A model generated the notes under the pieces. It saw nothing but the letters and a program-made list of their open reading frames with translations, searched no databases and was not told where the DNA came from. Positions 27,641 through 38,045 of a stretch of DNA of 64,000 nucleotides are shown piece after piece. How positions within the stretch are numbered: the first letter of the stretch is position 1; each line of letters begins with the position of its first letter. The DNA comes from Naegleria gruberi (Eukaryota). The translations under genes were made by a program, and so were the position numbers. The DNA lies in the NCBI GenBank assembly GCA_000004985.1, contig GG738857.1; one strand, written 5' to 3'.

Positions 27641-29146
27641 ATGATGGGAAATGTGATTTTGGAGTTGGATAGAAATATTTCATCGGAATTTCTAAAGGAT
27701 CAATTTTCAAGGACTTGCAAATTGAATTATTTAAAAACTATAATATTTCAACTTGTTGTGATTAGAGATAAGAAGTGCCTCCCTCTTGTTCAATTATTTA
27801 GTCATGATCGAGGATTTATTGAAAAGATGGTCGAATATCAGGCATTTGCTCTTGGCTATGCTTCAAAAGAAATTAAAAAAGACAAATCGATAGCAGTTAA
27901 GGCATTGAAAACAAGTGGACACTCAATATCTTGTGTCGATGAGTCGTTATATTCCGATCGAGAAATAGCTCTTATTGCACTATCAAGTCATTCCTATGCC
28001 ATTCGTTTCTTTATGGAACACTTTTCTAATGATAAGGAGATAATCATGAATGCAGTTTCGAAATGTGGTAACTTAATTCATTATGCTACATATTGTGATT
28101 TGGATATTATATTGGCTGCTGTGACAACGTACGAGCTTGCATTTGAGCTTGCCGACCCAAAATATTATTTTGATAGAGAAATAATGATGGTAGCGGTTAC
28201 AAGGAATGGAATAACTCTTAGATATGCAAGTGAAACATTACGAGAGGATAGAGAAATAGTTCTGAAAGCTGTGAAAAATGCTGGAGATGCTTTGAGATAT
28301 GCCTTAGTACAAGATAGAGAAATTGCCTTAGAGGCAGTAAAATCTTCTGGTACAGCGCTTCAGTTTGTTGACAAGAATTTCCTTAGCGACTCAGAAATAG
28401 TCATGATAGCTCTTCATTCAAATGGTTCTTCTTTACAGTATCTACCTAAAGAAATGAGAGAAATAAGGGAATATGTTGAAGCTGCAATTTCTGAAAATCC
28501 TCTGTCAATTCAATATGCTAGTGAGGTGTATAAATCAGATAGAGAGCTAGTTAAAAAGGCTATATCCGAAAAGGGAAATATTTTAGGATATGTTGACAAG
28601 AAATTTCTGAAAGATGAGCAAATTGTTTTTTTGGCTGCTTTAAACAATCCTATAACCTTCAAATACGCAGATGAAAGTTTACGGTCTAATCTGAATTTCA
28701 TATTGGACATTATAAGGACTTCAAAGAAAACAAATGTATTAATGAGCTATTTGCCGGCCCCTGGTAGCATTAACATTTATAATGATAGAGAGTTCTATTC
28801 AAAGATTCCTATCGATACACATTTTATTAAGGAGAAAATTAGACTTTGTGGATTCAAGGCTACATTTGAAGAGTTTAGTTACAGTAAGGAAATAATTACA
28901 GAGATGGTCAAAGATTACATGACACTTGCTTTTATTAATGAAGGACTTCAACAAGATAGAGAAATGCTTCGAACTGCTCTTAATCTTAATGGTGAGCTGA
29001 TTAGTGAAATGCCTTTCATTATTGACAACTTGGATATTGAACTGATTCAAGTATCATTAATTTCCCTTCTTTCTGGCAGCGATGATAAAGAAAAGGAAAT
29101 TATCCATCAAACTCTACAATTAATCCAACATTCACAACAACTTTAA
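27641..29146 (+). CDS. DUF4116-type repeat protein
   Basis: ATG at 27641. At least eight copies of an approximately 37-aa repeat occur, for example DREIVLKAVKNAGDALRYALVQDREIALEAVKSSGTALQFV. These match the DUF4116 repeat pattern (REIxLxAVxxNGxALxYA). Confidence 0.6.
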   Translation: MMGNVILELDRNISSEFLKDQFSRTCKLNYLKTIIFQLVVIRDKKCLPLVQLFSHDRGFIEKMVEYQAFALGYASKEIKKDKSIAVKALKTSGHSISCVDESLYSDREIALIALSSHSYAIRFFMEHFSNDKEIIMNAVSKCGNLIHYATYCDLDIILAAVTTYELAFELADPKYYFDREIMMVAVTRNGITLRYASETLREDREIVLKAVKNAGDALRYALVQDREIALEAVKSSGTALQFVDKNFLSDSEIVMIALHSNGSSLQYLPKEMREIREYVEAAISENPLSIQYASEVYKSDRELVKKAISEKGNILGYVDKKFLKDEQIVFLAALNNPITFKYADESLRSNLNFILDIIRTSKKTNVLMSYLPAPGSINIYNDREFYSKIPIDTHFIKEKIRLCGFKATFEEFSYSKEIITEMVKDYMTLAFINEGLQQDREMLRTALNLNGELISEMPFIIDNLDIELIQVSLISLLSGSDDKEKEIIHQTLQLIQHSQQL

Positions 29147-29202
29147 AAGGATACTCATTGTAATGGATAATAATCAACTATTATCAAAATATCAAAAAAA
29201 AA

Positions 29203-30006
29203 ATGAGCGCACAACCTTCACAAATTCTCTACAAGGATCTTTTATCAGGAGATGTGCTCGTTACCAATTATTATAAAATTGAAAAGGTATATCATGGATG
29301 TATCTATCAAGTAAAATCACATTTCATGATCCGAGAACCATCAGCCTTTGATGTATCATCACATTCCGAAGCATTAAAATCATCAGGATCATCAACTCCT
29401 TCATCTCCTTCACCTTCTTCCACCTTCTCTGATATTAAAAAATCTATTCGTTATTCTATTGTGGAAAAATTTGGATATCATGAATGCGCATTGAAAAAGA
29501 AGGAATTTCTCATGATTATGAATACCTACACAAGTACACTCAAATCAATTATTGAAGATACAGGAGATGAGGAGAAACAAAAAGCATTTCTAATGGGAAC
29601 AACACTTTTTATTCAAAGTGTACTGTCAAATTTCAATAATTATAGATTCTTTATTGGACCATCCAATCAAATGAATAAGGGAATGGTCATTGTACAAAAT
29701 TGTGCCAATGATTTACTGACACCAGAATTCTACTACTTTGTTGATGGCTTGAAAGAAGAAGTGTTCCACACCAAACCACATCAAACAAACACCACAACAA
29801 CCAACACAATTAGCCATAGTACTGTATCCTCTCAGAATCCAAACAATCCTCATCCCTATGCAACTCCATCCCCAACAGATTCCATTGACATTACTGGTTT
29901 AAAATCGCCCAATTTTGATGAACTCACCAATACAAGCGATAGCTTTGTTGGAAGTGCATCTAGTACTGGATCCATTCCAATCATTGATCACCATGAGAAT
30001 ATGTAA
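29203..30006 (+). CDS. Translationally controlled tumour protein (TCTP/Mss4-like fold) homologue with an internal Ser-rich insertion and a C-terminal extension
   Basis: The N-terminus ILYKDLLSGDVLVTNYYKIEKV parallels the TCTP start (MIIYKDIISGDEM...). The C-terminal core IGPSNQMNKGMVIVQNCANDLLTPEFYYFVDGLKEE parallels the TCTP GESMDPD...FV.WKHGL block. The match is moderate. Confidence 0.5.
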   Translation: MSAQPSQILYKDLLSGDVLVTNYYKIEKVYHGCIYQVKSHFMIREPSAFDVSSHSEALKSSGSSTPSSPSPSSTFSDIKKSIRYSIVEKFGYHECALKKKEFLMIMNTYTSTLKSIIEDTGDEEKQKAFLMGTTLFIQSVLSNFNNYRFFIGPSNQMNKGMVIVQNCANDLLTPEFYYFVDGLKEEVFHTKPHQTNTTTTNTISHSTVSSQNPNNPHPYATPSPTDSIDITGLKSPNFDELTNTSDSFVGSASSTGSIPIIDHHENM

Positions 30007-30248: not shown

Positions 30249-32325
30249 ATGCACAAAAAAGAACATTCTTCATTCTTCACGGTGGTGCCGAGGAGAGAAG
30301 GCGAAAAACATGATAGTAATGATGATGATGGCTCATCAACGCCAAGCAGTATCATAACAAAGCCTTCATTGTTGACCACGGCTGATGAAGCAAGTAAAAC
30401 GGAATATATTAAATTACATAGTAGAAATTGGTTGGAAGAGAAAATGTTGAAGCTGTGCTCATCGAGAGGAGCTACAATGTTCATTGTTGTAATGGGCTAT
30501 GCATTGGCTTTAATGTATGGATATGCGTCGATGAGTTGGAATGAAAATTTGATTAATATTGGAATAATTTTAGGACAAATCGTGTTGAATCAGAATGTTT
30601 TCATGTTCTTGTTTAAAGTGGATCAATTCTTGAGGATTGAAAATGGAGATAGACTAAAGATGGGATGTTTATTGATCTTATTGACAATAAGGTTCTTTTT
30701 ATTTGAAAGAAATAAGATTCTCTTTGTGCCAACCATGTTAATGTATATATTTGGAGGAAATCTTGTTTATTTGGAATCAACATTCTATGGACTCTTACCA
30801 ACGTATTATTTGTGCTCGCTCTACGTTTTGACTGGATCTTGGCGTGGTTATTTTCATTATTTGGAACATGGATTGGATAAAGAGCTAGTTGATATTTTGA
30901 TTGAGTGTTTTGGGTTGGCTTCTTGTTTATGGATTGCAACATTTTATCTTGTAACAACTACAGGATACTTGACAATCAAAGTTTCAAAACTAGAAGAAAC
31001 TAGAGCAAAATTGGAGGATGCTTTGTCGATTAGAAATACTTTCATGAGCCATATTTCACACGAATTTAGGTAAGACTTTTCTTTTATTAAGTGCTTATTA
31101 ATATGTGAAATTATTGAAACAAGATGTCCAATTCAATCAAGTATGGGATGTCTTCAATTGCTGAAAGAGACTGAATTGACAAAGAAACAACAAGAACTTG
31201 TGGATACAGTCACATATTCCAATAGTGTATCACTACTTCTTATTGAGGATATTTTGCGCCTGGTTAAAATTGAACATGGAAGAGATGATAACCTTGAATG
31301 TCAACATATTTTTGATATCGGAAGAGCTGTAGGAGTGTTGGACAAAATGGTTTGTGGATATGCACACCAATTTGGAGTCAATTTGAAATTAACGTGTGAA
31401 TCGCTTAACAATCTAGTAGTTCGATCCAGTCAGTCTCAACTACTCCAGATATTGAGTAATTTATTAACAAACGGTATCAAGGTAAGTGTTCTAATGAATC
31501 AGAAATAGGCTCACTTAGTAAAGGCCTCAAATCCAGATAGTGCAGTAGAATTAGTAGCTAACATTGTTTCAAAAACAGATAATCTGGCAGTAGTTCAATT
31601 CAAAATTATTGATCATGGCAAGGGAATACCTGAAGCTTTGATACCGACCATATTTGAGCCATTTGTTCAATTAGGAAATGTTAATGAGTCCAAGGTTCCC
31701 TCTTCTGGACTAGGATTAACAACAGTTTCTCATCTAGTAAATTCAATGAAAGGAAAAATTGAAGTCAAATCAAAGACTAATATTGGAAGTGAATTTATTG
31801 TGGAATTGCCATTTGATTTGGCATCAACGGAAGCTCAGGAAGATATAGTTCAAGATCCTATTCTAGAACTACAGTTAGCAGTGCCTCAAGAGCAATTAAA
31901 AATAGGAAGTTCTTCAGTTAGCTTGGACGGTGAAATGGACACAACTAGCATTATTGTAGCAGAAGACAATTCAGTGAATAGAAAAGTTATCTTGAAGATG
32001 TTGGAAAGTCTAGGACATAAGGCAGATGCTGTATGTGATGGTGAAGAGTTGGTTCAGCAATTCGATCCACAAAGACACAAAATTGTGCTTACTGACTTGG
32101 TAAGTTTGTTGATTCAAATTTTTTTAACATTCTGAAAAATAGAATATGCCCAACTTGAATGGAATCAAAGCAGCACAAGAATTGAGAAAAAGATTTGGAA
32201 ATGATTTCAAAATTTATCTGCTCACAGGAAATGTCATGGCTTGTGAAGAAGACTATTCTTCAATTATTGACAAGGTGGTAATCAAGCCAGTTTCTAAAAC
32301 AAATTTAAAGCATTTAATATCGTAA
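30249..32325 (+). CDS. Hybrid sensor histidine kinase with a multi-TM sensor, HisKA, HATPase_c and a receiver domain. Four exons.
   Basis: Exon 1 (30249-31069) has at least six TM helices and ends in the H-box SHISHEF+ag. Intron 31070-31123 (54 nt) restores HEFR-CPIQSSMGCLQLL, which matches the HEFRTPL consensus. Exon 2 (31124-31481) ends in the N-box LLTNGIK. Exon 3 (about 31509-32099) carries the G1/G2 boxes (IIDHGKGIPEA..., SSGLGLTTV) and the receiver start IIVAEDNSVNRKVI...VLTDL. Intron 32100-32142 is followed by exon 4 (32143-32325), NMPNLNGIKAAQEL...YLLTGNV, with stop at 32323-32325. The intron 2/3 boundary (a roughly 27-33-nt candidate at 31482-31508) is uncertain. Confidence 0.75.
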
Positions 32326-32522
32326 ACCCACAAAACTAGTAATTCTATTATTGTAGAATGCAATTGGAAGTTTAAGATCTTGCGGAAAACATTGGTTGTT
32401 TATCATTACAGTGAAAGGTGAAATAAATCACCTCATCAAGGAACTCTATTTACAATATTAGCGTATTATACAATGTAATTATCTCAAAATTATTGACCTA
32501 ATAAAGTTGCAAAATTATAAAA

Positions 32523-34449
32523 TTATGGTGTAAGAGATGTTAGAGAAACAAAATCATCCTTCCAATCATTCTCATATTTCTCAATTAAGAATTTCCAACC
32601 TCCTGTCAAATCTACAAGAAGACTATTATATTTATCCGGACCTGCCACTCCATTCAAATCATTATGTCCATCCTTTCCTCTCCACTTGTATCCAAACGTT
32701 GGTGAAAAGTGTGGTGATTTAGCTGAGAGACTGTGATATCCTCCTGATTGATCGTATTTACTATATTCTGAACCCTCCACACCAACTATATAAAGATTAA
32801 TAAATTATTAAATTATATATATCACTTACTCAATAGTCCACCAAATCTTCCCTTCTTTGGTGATTGGTAATAAATATACATGTGGCCATGTTCTCCATTG
32901 GCCTCAATCTTCTTTCCTGTCAATGAACGATTCTCTGCTCCTCCTAAAGGTAAATTCATTCCCCAATCTTGAATAATGCTATTTTAATTGAATTGTGAAT
33001 GAAAACTTACGTCTGTGATGTTTCAAAAATCCATCAGTCGTTCCAAACAACTTGGTATCTCTGAAAGTTATTCCAATAGTTTTGGTTTCATGCAAAACCT
33101 TCTTCTTTCCCATTGGTAAGCTAAAATTGTACTTGTCGTCTATTATTTTCTTTGGCAGTTGTATTGGCGGTTCTTCCATCATTTTACTGACATCTCTCAT
33201 AACTCGTCGTTGTCTATAATGACCATTTGATTGTGATTCATTCTCTAGGAATTTATCTATCATATTGGTTGGTAATTCTTCATCATTAGTGATCTCTAGT
33301 TCGATTGGCTTATCCAAAATGAGTTGATCAGATGCTTGTGGCTTGTAGTAATCTAAAGCATGTGTAGCTCCCAATCTTCTAAAAATCACCTTTCCATCAA
33401 TTCTTGCCTCATCTAAAATTAAATGTTCACACAATTTAAATTCCATTAAAAACTTACTTCCACTCGTTTTGGTTGAAATTATCTTTGATAAATCTCCATC
33501 CACAGTTCCACTGAATTATTATTATAAAGTTATTAATCCTTCATTATTAATCAATTAGAAAACCTACGTAACGAGCCATTTCCAAAATGAATGTTCATCC
33601 TCTCCATGTGTTTTCCTATCCATACTGTCCAACTGTATTATCACTCTACTTCCATGTGACAGGACACTTGCAATTGGATATCTGGTAGTGTTCCACAATT
33701 TCCAATCCTCCACCTTTGCATCCTGTCTATACATTAATCCTCCATATCTCAACACACAAAATACTCTCCTCAGAATATTTCCTAGAGAGTCATACTCTGG
33801 ATTTTCCAAAGTTCTCCTCCACAGAATGGCATCTCTCTTACATTGTGAAATTACTCCACTCTCATTATATTCCTTTTCGATAATTTGTTTTAATCTCTCA
33901 ACTTGACTCAGAAAGAGAGGATCCGAATATTCAACATCATCTGGAATGAGTGCATATTCAAAATGATCAATAAATATCACTGATTTTGGATCNNNNNNNN
34001 NNNNNNNNNNNNNNNNNNNNNNNNNNNNNNNNNNNNNNNNNNTTCAGCTATTGTAGATTTGAAGGCAAACTTGTGCAAACTGTTGAGCTCCTCATACGGG
34101 TTATTACTACATAATCATCATAGTCATTGAGTGAAAGTGAATCAAAATTTTTCACACTCTGGCTGGTTTGATGATGGTAATGATGATTGGAAAGGTCTTC
34201 CGATAGAGTTGACCTTGTATTTGATGGTGATAGTGTTGCTTGATGATTATCACCAACATCAGCCGACAATGATGAGGTTGTTGATGAAGAGGAATTTCTA
34301 AAATATTCTTGTTGATGATGAGGAGAGGTTGTAGTGGTGGCGGATGAGTCAACAACCTTTGAAATTTGTGTGTCTGTTATTGTTTCTTCTCCACCTTCTG
34401 CCACATTAGTATCAACACCTGTCGAGTCAGTATTGTAATGAAATTCCAT
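32523..34449 (-). CDS. Hypothetical multi-exon protein. It has a Ser/Thr-rich N-terminus and a conserved C-terminal region of unknown family, and is interrupted by an assembly gap.
   Basis: Five minus-strand exons are joined by introns 33567-33511 (57 nt), 33010-32968 (43 nt) and 32829-32786 (44 nt), all GTAAGT/GTAGGT to AG. The reading frame is continuous from ...WKWLVT-GTVDGDLSK... through ...HHR-HWGMNLPLGG...GHMYIYYQSPKKGRFGGLL-IGVEGSEYSKYDQSGG...KWRGKDGHNDLNG...FLIEKYENDWKDD. The N-terminal exon (34449 to at least 34043) runs into the gap. Confidence 0.4.
33993..34042. other. Assembly gap (50 N)
   Basis: Run of n characters inside the hypothetical gene above. Confidence 0.95.
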
Positions 34450-35519: not shown

Positions 35520-36524
35520 ATTTCCTCAAGGTAATAATGATGATGATAATATCAATTCCAATGTATCTTTTCTCCACACAACACTGTCTTTTCAACAACC
35601 AACAGACACAAAACAATAACAAACTCTCCCAACCGACAAAATCAATTCTCGTTGTTGGCCAAACTAGAATGTTGTTGTGGTCGACCAATAATTTTTTTAA
35701 GAGAATTTTATTGCAGTGATGCTTAATATCAAAGGAGAAAGCGCGAAAAAAATACTGCACAACAAAGGCTTCATACAGTATGAAAGAGTTTTCCTTCTCG
35801 GAAGGGCGGTGTTTAGATGTTGATGGTTGAGAAACAAAATTGAGATTGGCATGACGAGGACGAGTATGAATGAGGGGTAGACTTTTGGGGAGTTTGTGCT
35901 ACATCCAACACAATTTAATGATGATTGCTTGTTTTAGATTGGTGAACATTCACGAATAGCCTTAATAATGGCTTCTATTAGGATTGGACATAGGAAATGA
36001 TCCAGATGAGGAACTCTTATGAAACTTTTCATAAGTACAGTCTGTATCTCGAAAGAAGCAAAATGATCCAACATTCCTTGTCAGATTTATTAAATGTGAA
36101 TTAACTTCTGACAAGTCATTGTCATAATATCATCATTCAACAACTGGTGGTACCAATACAGGATCAACTTCAAGCTACAATGATGAAATTATTGAAATGT
36201 TTGTTAAACACTTATGAAAATGATAGAAACACCAATAATAGCTAAAACGAGAAAGTGAACAAGTTAATAATGATTCTCGAAAATTGGTCAACCACAATAT
36301 TTCTTAACAAAGAAAATTTTAGATAATTGTTGTAAAAGTTTAATGTAATAAAAAGGATATTGGTCGGATTATGTTAATTGTTCAGTCATTCTCCGCCTTA
36401 AACTCCTTTTGGTCTCGATATCATTTTTGGCATGTCCATTACAATTTGCATAAGATGAGGGAACTGAATTGGCCAAGAATTGGTCAAAAAAACAAACAAA
36501 AAACCAAGCTTCTAAGAATCGGCA

Positions 36525-38045
36525 ATGATTTCGTCCACTTCTACTACACCAGACCAAATTTCTGGGACCACGGTCCCGGTCTTGAGCAAGACAGAAGTCT
36601 TTGAAGAAGCAACCAATTTTGTAACATTACTTTATACAGAGTTGAAGAAGAAACCAGAAGAAATTGATGAAAGATTGCAAATAATCAAGGCAGAGATTGA
36701 TAGGACTGGAACTTATGTTCATACCAGTGAAGAATTAACCTATGGCTGCAAGGTTGCTTGGAGAAATTCAGTGAGTTGGTAAGTTAAAAGTTTCGAATAA
36801 TGATAGTAACAAGAATTAAAGTATTGGAAAGGTTCACTGGCAAGTATTAGCCGTCCATGACAAGAGACATTGCAAAACAGAGGAAGAAATAGCTCAAGCA
36901 CTAAAGGAACATGCCAAATTTGCCTTCAATGATGGTAATGTGAGATCTAGTGTTACCCTCTTTCGTCAAGTTTCCAATCCAGATGGAAGTGATGAAATTC
37001 GTATTCACAATCCACAAATCATTCGTTATGCAGGTTATAAAAACAATGATGGAAGTGTTTTAGGTGATCCAGATCATGTTGCCTTGACTGAACATGCACT
37101 TTCTCTTGGTTGGAGGAAAGATCAACCAAAATCAAGATTTGACATTCTTCCACTCCTGATTCAAATTGGAGTTCAAGGAAAGACTAAATATTTCGATTTG
37201 GAACCTGAATACACAACTGAGGTTCATCTCGAACATCCAAAATATCCACAAACAAGTGACATGGCTTTACGTTGGCATGGATTGCCAGCTATTACCAATA
37301 TGAGATTCGAATTGGGAGGTGTTTTTTATACTGCAGCTGCATTCAATGGATGGTAAGTTTCTAAGAATTAATTGTTTGAATGAAAACAAAATATTCGAAT
37401 CAAAGGTACATGACAACTGAAATTACAAGAAACTTTTTGGATGATTTTAGATATAATCTCTTAGATGAATTTGGAAGAGTTATTGGTGTGCGGCCTGATT
37501 CAGATGCCGAATCAAAAAAGAATCCATTCTGGAAAGATATTGCCTCTGCCGAATTCAATGTCATGGTTCAACATTCATTCGATAAACAAAATGTCAAGAT
37601 GGTTGATCATCACACTGCAGGTAAACAATTTGTAAAGCATATGCAAAATGAGGAAAAGAAAGGAAGAGAATGTCCTGCACGTTACAGTTGGATTGTTCCA
37701 CCAAGTGCTGCTCACACAAATCCAGTTTTTCACACAAGGATGAAGGAAATTTGGTTGAAACCAACCATTTCTTATCAACCTGAGATTTTTGATGGAAGTT
37801 TTAGAAATGTTATGGCAAGAGGAGAGGTTTTACCTTCAGATCCTGATTGGAATGTTAAGGAAAGTGTTCCTTCCACACCAACTCAAAGGAGCAAGGCAAC
37901 CTCAAGTCAAAAATCAACGACAGCCAAATCATCCACAAAACAAGTAAGAAGTAATTCTAGTGATAGAGTTCTGGTTAAGATTTTGGCAATTCTTGTGGTC
38001 TTGTTAGCAATCTTATTGGCGTACAATTCTTCACAACACCAATAA
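36525..38045 (+). CDS. Nitric-oxide synthase oxygenase-domain protein (bacterial NOSoxy-like) with a C-terminal transmembrane anchor. Three exons: 36525-36778, 36822-37352 and 37406-38045.
   Basis: Exon 1 reads ...[24 protein letters not shown] plus tg. Intron 36779-36821 follows (GTAAGT to ttaaag). The split codon tg|t gives the heme-thiolate Cys in SCIGKVHW. Exon 2 carries IRYAGYKNNDGSVLGDP and WHGLPAITNMRFELGGVFYTAAAFNG plus tg. Intron 37353-37405 follows; tg|g gives W, and the sequence continues YMTTEITRNFLDDFRYN...DHHTAGKQFVKHMQNEE...WIVPPSAAHTNPVFH. There is no reductase (FMN/FAD/NADPH) domain. The protein ends in VLVKILAILVVLLAILLAY, a tail-anchor-like TM helix. Confidence 0.75.

What the first reader, a model, noticed from the sequence alone, without database searches (positions are those of the whole stretch)
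30249..32325. Hybrid histidine kinase whose sensor is a compact polytopic membrane domain
The H-box sits immediately after the last TM helix, with no HAMP, PAS or GAF linker. This recalls membrane-embedded sensing as in ethylene-receptor-like or LytS/5TM-type kinases. The conserved HEFR(T/C)P motif is split by intron 1, and the DL|NMPxxNG receiver motif is split by intron 3. One junction, after the N-box LLTNGIK at 31482-31508, appears to need an intron of only about 27 nt. That would be exceptionally short even for this short-intron genome.
Basis: partly seen in the sequence, partly recalled or inferred. Interest (0 to 1): 0.5.

Follow-up and report, generated by a model that had tools for sequence, protein, structure and literature searches.

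The report
Annotated Naegleria membrane histidine kinase gene
This is an already annotated Naegleria gruberi gene for a hybrid histidine kinase with a six-helix membrane sensor joined directly to the kinase, and the "27-base intron" is best read as an ordinary 42-base intron.

Summary
The window is Naegleria gruberi NEG-M. The + strand gene at 30249-32325 has four exons. Spliced with introns of 54, 42 and 43 nt, it encodes exactly RefSeq XP_002679490.1 / UniProt D2V8T3 (645 aa).

Confirmed:
- HisKA, HATPase_c and Response_reg domains are present.
- There are six TM helices with very short outer loops.
- No HAMP, PAS or GAF domain is found. TM6 is modelled as one helix running into the DHp helix that carries His271.
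- Intron 1 splits HEFR|CP and intron 3 splits DL|NMP.

Not supported: the 27-nt intron. The same GTAAGT donor paired with the AAAG acceptor at 31523 gives a 42-nt in-frame intron.
- That reading restores the family-invariant N(A/G)(V/I)KAS motif with no indel. The 27-nt reading inserts AHLVK and costs 10 bits against a family HMM.
- 42 nt sits in the window's 43-nt intron size mode.
- It is the annotated model.
- No transcript data were available.

The sensor domain matches no Pfam family and no solved fold. It has only 48 relatives among 1.84 billion representative proteins. All named relatives are from Naegleria or Willaertia. It is not homologous to the ethylene-receptor or LytS sensor domains. 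The stimulus is unknown. Overall this is an ordinary catalogued gene with a mildly interesting orphan sensor family.

The parts
30249..31069 (+). Exon 1: disordered N-terminus (residues 1-44), two short amphipathic helices, the 6-TM sensor, the linker helix and the start of the H-box (…SHISHEF + 2 nt of the Arg274 codon).
   Evidence: exact match to XP_002679490.1.
30465..30968 (+). Six-TM sensor domain (residues 73-240). Arg148 is invariant. Pro161, Pro184 and Gly208 are at least 90% conserved. Tyr84, Asn114, Lys156, Asn171 and Tyr233 are less strictly conserved (about 70-76%).
   Evidence: AF2 pLDDT 90.6, pTM 0.80. Conservation in 29 relatives. Hydropathy. No Pfam match.
30969..31034 (+). 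Linker (signalling) helix, residues 241-262. It continues TM6 and shows a heptad pattern: L241/L248/L255 and K244/T251/A258.
   Evidence: single helix 211-288.
31070..31123 (+). Intron 1, 54 nt, GTAAGA…CAAG, phase 2. It splits HEFR|CP and contains an in-frame stop.
   Evidence: Splicing restores the family-conserved HEFRCP motif (H271, E272, R274 and P276 invariant).
31124..31481 (+). Exon 2: the rest of the DHp (HisKA) domain and the first part of the ATP-binding domain up to the N-box …LLTNGIK.
31482..31523 (+). Intron 2, 42 nt, GTAAGT…AAAG, phase 0. The remaining 15 nt (31509-31523) would encode AHLVK if the 27-nt acceptor were used.
   Evidence: Ten homologues show no indel here. The family HMM scores 696.9 vs 686.9 bits. 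Pfam HATPase_c scores 76.2 vs 73.4 bits. The 645-aa product equals the RefSeq protein and the 650-aa product is not in the collection. Size mode 43 nt and AAAG acceptors in the window. A validated neighbouring intron bypasses an ATAG at +28.
31524..32099 (+). Exon 3: the rest of HATPase_c (G1 box D423xG425xG427, F box F437, G2 box G455LGL), a poorly conserved linker, and the first half of the receiver (E540, D541, phospho-acceptor D584).
32100..32142 (+). Intron 3, 43 nt, GTAAGT…ATAG, phase 0, between DL and NMPNLNG. The position is conserved in homologue L001. A 99%-identical contig of the same locus (L003) has rearranging indels here (net +3 nt).
32143..32325 (+). Exon 4: second half of the receiver domain (T613, K633) and the TAA stop.

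Best explanation
The locus is the annotated Naegleria gruberi gene NAEGRDRAFT_65270 (XP_002679490.1, D2V8T3). It is one of at least eight N. gruberi paralogues of a hybrid histidine-kinase family whose named members are all from Naegleria or Willaertia.

Shown:
- The gene has four exons and three short introns of 54, 42 and 43 nt.
- The protein has a six-helix membrane bundle with almost no extramembrane loops. TM6 is modelled as one helix into DHp helix 1, which carries His271.
- It has a complete HisKA-type catalytic core (N, G1, F and G2 boxes) and a complete receiver (E540, D541, D584, T613, K633).

Inferred mechanism:
- A cue is perceived inside or at the face of the membrane by the six-helix bundle. 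Invariant Arg148 and the conserved TM3-TM4 hairpin are the best candidate site.
- The cue changes the position or rotation of TM6.
- The change is passed along the ~30-residue coiled-coil linker to the DHp, switching autophosphorylation of His271.
- The phosphoryl group moves to Asp584 of the fused receiver and then to downstream phosphorelay proteins.

The stimulus is not known. Intron 2 is 42 nt, not 27 nt.
For: - Organism: three flanking ORFs are identical to N. gruberi NEG-M proteins on one 573-kb scaffold.
- Gene model: the 645-aa product with the 42-nt intron is identical to XP_002679490.1/D2V8T3. The 650-aa product is not in the collection.
- Domains.
- Intron 2: all ten homologues read LLTN-x-(V/I)KAS plus 5 residues plus V with no length variation. 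At least one of them (P0001) is an uninterrupted ORF through this region. The family HMM favours the 42-nt model by 10 bits.
- Intron sizes: other introns inferred in the window are 43, 43, 43, 44, 53 and 65 nt, several with AAAG acceptors. The NOS-gene intron 36779-36821 (43 nt) is validated by a 25.6-bit Pfam gain. It bypasses an ATAG at +28.
- Sensor: AF2 pLDDT 90.6, six TM helices, and helix 211-261 continuous. The full-length model has one helix 211-288.
- Family: 48 hits in 1.84e9 representatives. All named ones are N. gruberi, N. fowleri, N. lovaniensis or Willaertia magna.
- Literature: Kabbara et al. 2018 (PMC6324907) list 24 N. gruberi HKs, mostly multi-TM with no known sensor domain.
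Against: - No transcript evidence could be obtained. The spliced protein is not found in any assembly on record. The 99.4%-identical second haplotype has no variant inside 31482-31523.
- A CTAAT branch-point-like motif at 31491-31495 lies 14 nt upstream of the 27-nt acceptor. Some use of that acceptor is therefore mechanistically conceivable.
- The signalling mechanism is inferred from architecture and from general knowledge of histidine kinases. No experiment exists for any family member.
- The AF2 models are monomers, whereas the working unit should be a dimer.
- I did not check whether N. gruberi has an HPt protein for the relay.
Confidence: 0.88

Rival explanations
1. The junction after LLTNGIK uses the ATAG acceptor at 31508. 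Intron 2 is then a 27-nt mini-intron and the kinase carries five extra residues (AHLVK) after the N-box. This could be the only splice form, or an alternative form produced from tandem in-frame acceptors 15 nt apart.
For: - The 27-nt splice is in frame and has canonical GTAAGT…TAG ends.
- It is the first AG downstream of a CTAAT branch-like motif (sequence).
- N-x-x-K-A is still retained, and Pfam HATPase_c still scores 73.4 bits.
Against: - It creates a 5-residue insertion where ten relatives show none.
- It costs 10 bits against the family HMM and 2.8 bits against Pfam.
- Its product is not in the protein collection, whereas the 42-nt product is the RefSeq protein.
- 27 nt lies far below the 42-44 nt size mode of introns in this window.
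- A validated neighbouring intron skips an ATAG at +28 for an AAAG at +43.
Confidence: 0.07
2. The sensor is a diverged member of a known membrane sensor family: the ethylene-binding domain, 5TMR-LYT, a MASE domain or a DesK-type sensor. The protein would then be a eukaryotic homologue of one of those receptors.
For: - The general architecture is shared: a polytopic membrane domain with short loops that drives a kinase.
Against: - None of 29 members matches a Pfam sensor family at E<=1, and the query matches none either.
- The family profile hits nothing meaningful among PDB sequences.
- The best Foldseek E-value against PDB is 0.87, with TM <= 0.33.
- A profile search of 1.84e9 proteins found 48 hits. 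All those inspected are heterolobosean-type HKs, and all named ones are Naegleria or Willaertia.
- There is no conserved Cys/His copper site.
- There are six TM helices rather than three or five, and no GAF domain.
Confidence: 0.04
3. The in-frame stops at 31070-31123 and 31482-31508 are real, and the locus is a pseudogene or two or three separate small genes.
For: Prokaryote-style gene callers split the locus into separate ORFs, for example P0167 (121 aa) and a 165-aa HATPase_c ORF.
Against: - Each interruption starts with GTAAG and ends in AG, and its removal restores invariant motifs exactly.
- Within the gene, the only indels in either 99%-identical contig fall inside intron 3 (L003); the L002 contig differs there only by point substitutions.
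- Homologue P0001 is one continuous ORF across both positions.
Confidence: 0.01

Closest known systems
Naegleria gruberi hybrid histidine kinases catalogued by Kabbara et al. 2018 (Excavata groups II-IV; PMC6324907). The gene itself is XP_002679490.1 / D2V8T3_NAEGR.
   Same: The sequence is identical to the RefSeq/UniProt entry. The paper describes most of the 24 N. gruberi HKs as hybrid, multi-TM, lacking known sensor domains and unrelated to other described HK groups.
   Different: The paper does not define the TM region as a domain family.
- six helices modelled with high confidence
- invariant Arg148
- at least eight N. gruberi paralogues, plus members in N. fowleri, N. lovaniensis and Willaertia
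- no relatives elsewhere at HMMER sensitivity

I could not confirm which numbered NgrubHK this gene is, because the supplement is not held.
DesK of Bacillus subtilis and other kinases that sense through their membrane helices (the class defined by Mascher, Helmann and Unden 2006; cited from my own knowledge).
   Same: Both have a polytopic membrane region with minimal external loops. In both, the last TM helix runs straight into the DHp helix with no HAMP, PAS or GAF domain. The signal must therefore be read in the bilayer and passed on by helix motion.
   Different: DesK has five TM helices, a HisKA_3 DHp and no fused receiver. No sequence or fold relationship was detected. The analogy concerns how the protein works, not family membership.
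Ethylene receptors (ETR1 family).
   Same: Both are eukaryotic, membrane-embedded and histidine-kinase-linked, and often hybrid with a receiver.
   Different: ETR1 has three TM helices with a Cys65/His69 copper site followed by a GAF domain (own knowledge). Here there are six TM helices, no conserved Cys or His in the membrane and no GAF domain.
LytS / 5TMR-LYT kinases (PF07694).
   Same: Both have a multi-helix membrane sensor.
   Different: No PF07694 match appears in any of 29 members. LytS has a GAF domain and a His_kinase (PF06580) core (own knowledge). This protein has a HisKA core. Its closest solved cores are hybrid kinase 6qrj and HK853 3dge/2c2a.

Membership tests
HisKA-type (class I) hybrid histidine kinase | DHp domain with an H-box phospho-acceptor His. 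| tested here: met
   PF00512 scores 45.7 bits against a cutoff of 26.9. SHISH271EFRCP is present, with H271, E272 and R274 invariant in 20 relatives.
HisKA-type (class I) hybrid histidine kinase | GHKL ATP-binding domain with N, G1, F and G2 boxes. | tested here: met
   PF02518 scores 76.2 bits. N390, D423xG425xG427, F437xxF440 and G455LGL are conserved.
HisKA-type (class I) hybrid histidine kinase | Fused receiver with an acidic pair, a phospho-acceptor Asp, and conserved Thr/Ser and Lys. | tested here: met
   PF00072 scores 58.5 bits. E540, D541, D584, T613 and K633 were located.
HisKA-type (class I) hybrid histidine kinase | Autokinase and phosphotransfer activity. | not testable with these tools
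   This needs biochemistry.
Ethylene receptor (ETR1-like) | Three-TM ethylene-binding domain with conserved Cys and His copper ligands. | tested here: not met
   Six TM helices are predicted. No conserved Cys or His appears among columns with >=60% conservation.
Ethylene receptor (ETR1-like) | GAF domain between the membrane and the kinase. | tested here: not met
   No GAF hit at E<=1. A single helix runs from 211 to 288.
LytS / 5TMR-LYT | Match to PF07694 (5TMR-LYT). | tested here: not met
   0 of 29 members match at E<=1.
LytS / 5TMR-LYT | His_kinase (PF06580) type DHp. | tested here: not met
   The DHp is HisKA PF00512.
Kinases sensing through membrane helices (Mascher 2006 class; DesK-like way of working) | Multiple TM helices, negligible extracytoplasmic loops, and no cytoplasmic sensor domain before the DHp. 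| tested here: met
   The putative outer loops are 2-4 residues long. No Pfam domain occurs in residues 1-261. TM6 and DHp form a continuous helix. This is an architectural class, not a homology family.
Naegleria/Willaertia 6-TM sensor HK family (defined here) | Match to the 209-position sensor profile, with the invariant Arg in TM3 and conserved Pro in TM4 and TM5. | tested here: met
   The query is the first row of the profile alignment. Relatives score up to 297 bits. R148 is present in 29 of 29, P161 in 27 of 29 and P184 in 27 of 29.

The most novel reading that the evidence does not exclude
The six-helix module is a previously undefined sensor-domain class, so far seen only in Naegleria and Willaertia. 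It has no Pfam model, no solved structural relative, and 48 clusters in 1.84 billion representatives. In this reading it reads a membrane-borne or membrane-partitioning cue through the invariant Arg148 and the TM3-TM4 hairpin, and it drives the kinase directly through TM6. Members occur in the pathogen N. fowleri and have no human counterpart, so the family would be a lineage-specific signalling input worth characterising.

A smaller additional possibility is that the tandem acceptors at +27 and +42 are both used. That would give two isoforms differing by AHLVK next to the ATP-binding N-box.
Probability: 0.3. Interest if true: 0.4.

Novelty: already known. Interest (0 to 1): 0.15.

Why it matters
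As a gene it adds little. It is in RefSeq and UniProt, and the N. gruberi histidine-kinase repertoire has been surveyed in print. Three practical points come out of the check.
- The supposed record-short intron is a mis-chosen acceptor. The window shows a tight ~43-nt minimal intron class in which earlier AGs are skipped.
- Several database relatives look non-hybrid only because the conserved receiver intron was not spliced.
- About a third or more of N. gruberi's kinases share one orphan six-helix sensor. It also occurs in N. fowleri, and nobody has defined or studied it. For researchers working on Naegleria sensing or looking for amoeba-specific targets, this is a concrete domain with testable residues.

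Tried and rejected
- Self-hit in the first homology search: absent. This first suggested an unannotated gene. An exact look-up showed the gene is annotated but hidden behind a 121-aa fragment that serves as the cluster representative.
- The look-up of encoding contigs for P0122 and for the full protein P0166: nothing on record, so no transcript contigs were available to settle the junction.
- The 99.4%-identical haplotype L002/L003: no variant inside 31482-31523, so it is uninformative for intron 2.
- Alternative donor at 31474 (GTATCA) with the acceptor at 31518 (45 nt): it gives LLTN-VKAS, one residue short of the family motif, with a weak donor. Rejected by inspection.
- Acceptor at 31540 (59 nt): it shifts the frame into a stop. 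Rejected (sequence).
- Profile search with alignment A3 in the word-indexed database: it returned only one protein and was uninformative.
- afdb50 fold search: the library was unavailable.
- Literature on N. gruberi intron length: no figures found. The Fritz-Laylin 2010 paper is not held.
- Kabbara supplement: not held, so the NgrubHK number and group of this gene were not established.

Full report
**What is at the coordinates**

The window has about 34% G+C. The region 30249-32325 holds a + strand reading frame interrupted three times by short GTAAG…AG segments. Three long ORFs flanking the region are residue-for-residue identical to Naegleria gruberi NEG-M proteins on one 573-kb scaffold (XP_002679599, XP_002679487, XP_002679604). 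The window is therefore N. gruberi nuclear DNA.

Removing 31070-31123 (54 nt), 31482-31523 (42 nt) and 32100-32142 (43 nt) gives a 645-residue protein. That protein is exactly RefSeq XP_002679490.1 / GenBank EFC46746.1 / UniProt D2V8T3 (NAEGRDRAFT_65270), which UniRef names 'histidine kinase'.

The first homology search did not return this entry. The cause is that its 90% cluster is represented by a 121-residue fragment, P0167. That fragment is exon 2 read through into intron 2.

**Checking the observation**

Pfam finds HisKA (residues 262-326), HATPase_c (377-491) and Response_reg (536-644), all well above their curated cut-offs. It finds nothing in residues 1-251.

The catalytic and receiver motifs are complete:
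- The H-box is SHISH271EFRCP.
- The N box (N390), G1 (D423xGxG), F (F437) and G2 (G455LGL) boxes are present.
- The receiver has E540/D541, the phospho-acceptor D584, T613 and K633.

Hydropathy analysis and an AlphaFold2 model of residues 55-262 (29-sequence alignment, mean pLDDT 90.6, pTM 0.80) describe the sensor. Hydropathy shows five clear TM peaks and a weaker one for TM5; the model resolves six transmembrane helices. They span residues 73-94, 97-113, 133-151, 156-174, 178-207 and 211 onward. The loops on the presumed outer side are 2-4 residues long.

In the full-length model one helix runs from 211 to 288. It comprises TM6, a ~30-residue linker with heptad-spaced conserved Leu (241/248/255), and DHp helix 1 with His271.

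Intron 1 splits the Arg codon of HEFR|CP. The intron 3 position is conserved in a 45%-identical homologue from an environmental assembly. There a 57-nt GT…AG segment separates TDM from NMPNMNG (L001).

**The 27-nt intron**

The donor GTAAGT at 31482 is not in doubt. Two acceptors keep the frame:
- ATAG at 31508 gives a 27-nt intron and the product …LLTNGIK-AHLVK-ASNPDS….
- AAAG at 31523 gives a 42-nt intron and the product …LLTNGIK-ASNPDS….

Five lines of evidence favour 42 nt.
1. All ten closest relatives read LLTN-x-(V/I)-K-A-S, then five residues, then Val, with no length variation. At least one of them, P0001, is an uninterrupted ORF through this region. The 27-nt model is the only sequence with an insertion there.
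2. An HMM built from 19 relatives, without the query, scores the 42-nt product at 696.9 bits and the 27-nt product at 686.9 bits. Pfam HATPase_c gives 76.2 against 73.4 bits.
3. The 42-nt product is the deposited RefSeq protein. The 27-nt product is not in a collection of 15 billion sequences.
4. Other introns I could infer in the window from strong donors joining long open frames are 43, 43, 43, 44, 53 and 65 nt. With the kinase's own 43 and 54 nt, this points to a size mode at 42-44 nt. Several use AAAG or CAAG acceptors.
5. The neighbouring NO-synthase-oxygenase gene offers a validated precedent.
   - Its intron 36779-36821 is 43 nt and ends in AAAG. It contains an ATAG at +28 that is not used, because using it would give an in-frame TAA.
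   - The 43-nt splice restores the CIG heme-ligand motif. It raises the Pfam NO_synthase score from 450.7 bits (rival 61-nt splice) to 476.3 bits.

I could not obtain transcript evidence. The spliced protein is in no assembly on record. A second haplotype or strain, 99.4% identical, carries no variant in 31482-31523.

A CTAAT motif at 31491-31495 could serve as a branch point for the 27-nt acceptor. I therefore leave about 7% for some use of that site, most plausibly as a minor alternative form.

**What the sensor is**

A profile of the sensor region was scored against 1.84 billion representative proteins. It found 48 hits with E<=0.001. Every full-length hit I inspected carries the same HEFRxP-type (in a few members HELRTP) kinase behind the sensor. 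Every hit that has a name is from N. gruberi, N. fowleri, N. lovaniensis or Willaertia magna.

N. gruberi alone has at least eight paralogues: D2V8T3, D2VLN2, D2V4J9, D2VA62, D2VDJ6, and the entries P0002, P0003 and P0008.

Conservation across the 29 aligned relatives is as follows:
- Arg148 near the outer end of TM3 is invariant.
- Pro161 (TM4), Pro184 (TM5) and Gly208 are at least 90% conserved.
- Tyr84, Asn114, Lys156, Asn171 and Tyr233 are less strictly conserved (about 70-76%).
- There is no conserved Cys/His pair, so an ethylene-receptor-type copper site is excluded.

The resemblance to ethylene receptors or LytS is only that sensing is membrane-embedded. The better functional analogy is DesK and other kinases that read the bilayer through their helices. 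It remains an analogy, because no homology was detected.

**How it most likely works**

Shown: the domain set, the intact catalytic and receiver residues, the six-helix bundle with negligible external loops, and the continuous TM6-DHp helix.

Inferred:
- The topology is N-in/C-in. Six helices, a cytoplasmic kinase, and positively charged N-terminal and TM2-TM3 segments fit this.
- The working unit is a dimer.
- A cue is perceived within or at the membrane.
- The signal passes by displacement or rotation of TM6 through the coiled-coil linker.
- His271 is autophosphorylated, and the phosphoryl group is relayed to Asp584 and onward.

The stimulus is unknown. The invariant Arg148 and the TM3-TM4 hairpin are the obvious first target for mutation.

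**Comparison with what is known, and verdict**

Kabbara et al. 2018 (PMC6324907) reported 24 N. gruberi histidine kinases. Most have several hydrophobic helices, lack known sensor domains and are unrelated to described HK groups. No functional study of any Naegleria HK turned up.

The gene and its general architecture are therefore already known. The one unusual claim in the finding, a 27-nt intron, is not supported. What remains mildly interesting is that the membrane module is a coherent, narrowly distributed domain family that has not yet been defined.

Interest is 0.15.

Noticed in passing
window 36500-38045 (+): This is a gene for a nitric-oxide-synthase oxygenase domain (Pfam NO_synthase, 476 bits when spliced) with a C-terminal hydrophobic tail. 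It has two short introns, 36779-36821 (43 nt) and 37353-37405 (53 nt), both ending in AAAG. The first intron skips internal ATAG and CAAG sites.
   Followed up: partly
L001 3330-3400; P0001 and P0002 C-termini (alignment A1, columns 830-870): Family members that appear to lack a receiver end in 'TDMV…'. Examples are the N. gruberi RefSeq model P0002 and the metagenome ORF P0001. That ending is read-through of the conserved intron at the D(L/M)|NMP position. In L001, splicing a 57-nt intron restores a complete receiver. Some 'non-hybrid' kinases of this family are therefore probably gene-model artefacts.
   Followed up: partly
L002 1-3020 and L003 1-1461, matching window 30649-33670: An ENA/Logan 'metagenome' (ERR1078381 / ERZ929261, PRJEB11402) contains DNA 99.4% identical to this N. 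gruberi locus. There are 16 substitutions and one 2-nt deletion, all substitutions or intergenic/intronic. The same sample also holds the 45%-identical paralogue P0001. The sample evidently includes a N. gruberi-like amoeba.
   Followed up: partly
window 31143-31508 (+): In the 90%-identity protein clustering, the full-length RefSeq protein D2V8T3 is represented by a 121-residue fragment. The fragment is exon 2 read into intron 2 and ends …NGIKVSVLMNQK. Homology searches therefore do not show the self-hit, which can make an annotated gene look unannotated.
   Followed up: yes
window 27641-30006 (+) and 32979-34449 (-): The neighbours are unrelated to two-component signalling. Upstream are a DUF4116-repeat protein (27641-29146) and a TCTP homologue (29203-30006). 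Downstream on the other strand is an ORF with a weak-to-moderate Ntox11 (novel toxin 11) match (33564-33980), inside what looks like a multi-exon gene.
   Followed up: no
window-wide (introns listed): Introns inferred in this window cluster tightly at 42-44 nt: six of about eleven, including two in the kinase. This suggests a minimal-intron size class in N. gruberi. Acceptors are often AAAG or CAAG rather than YAG.
   Followed up: partly
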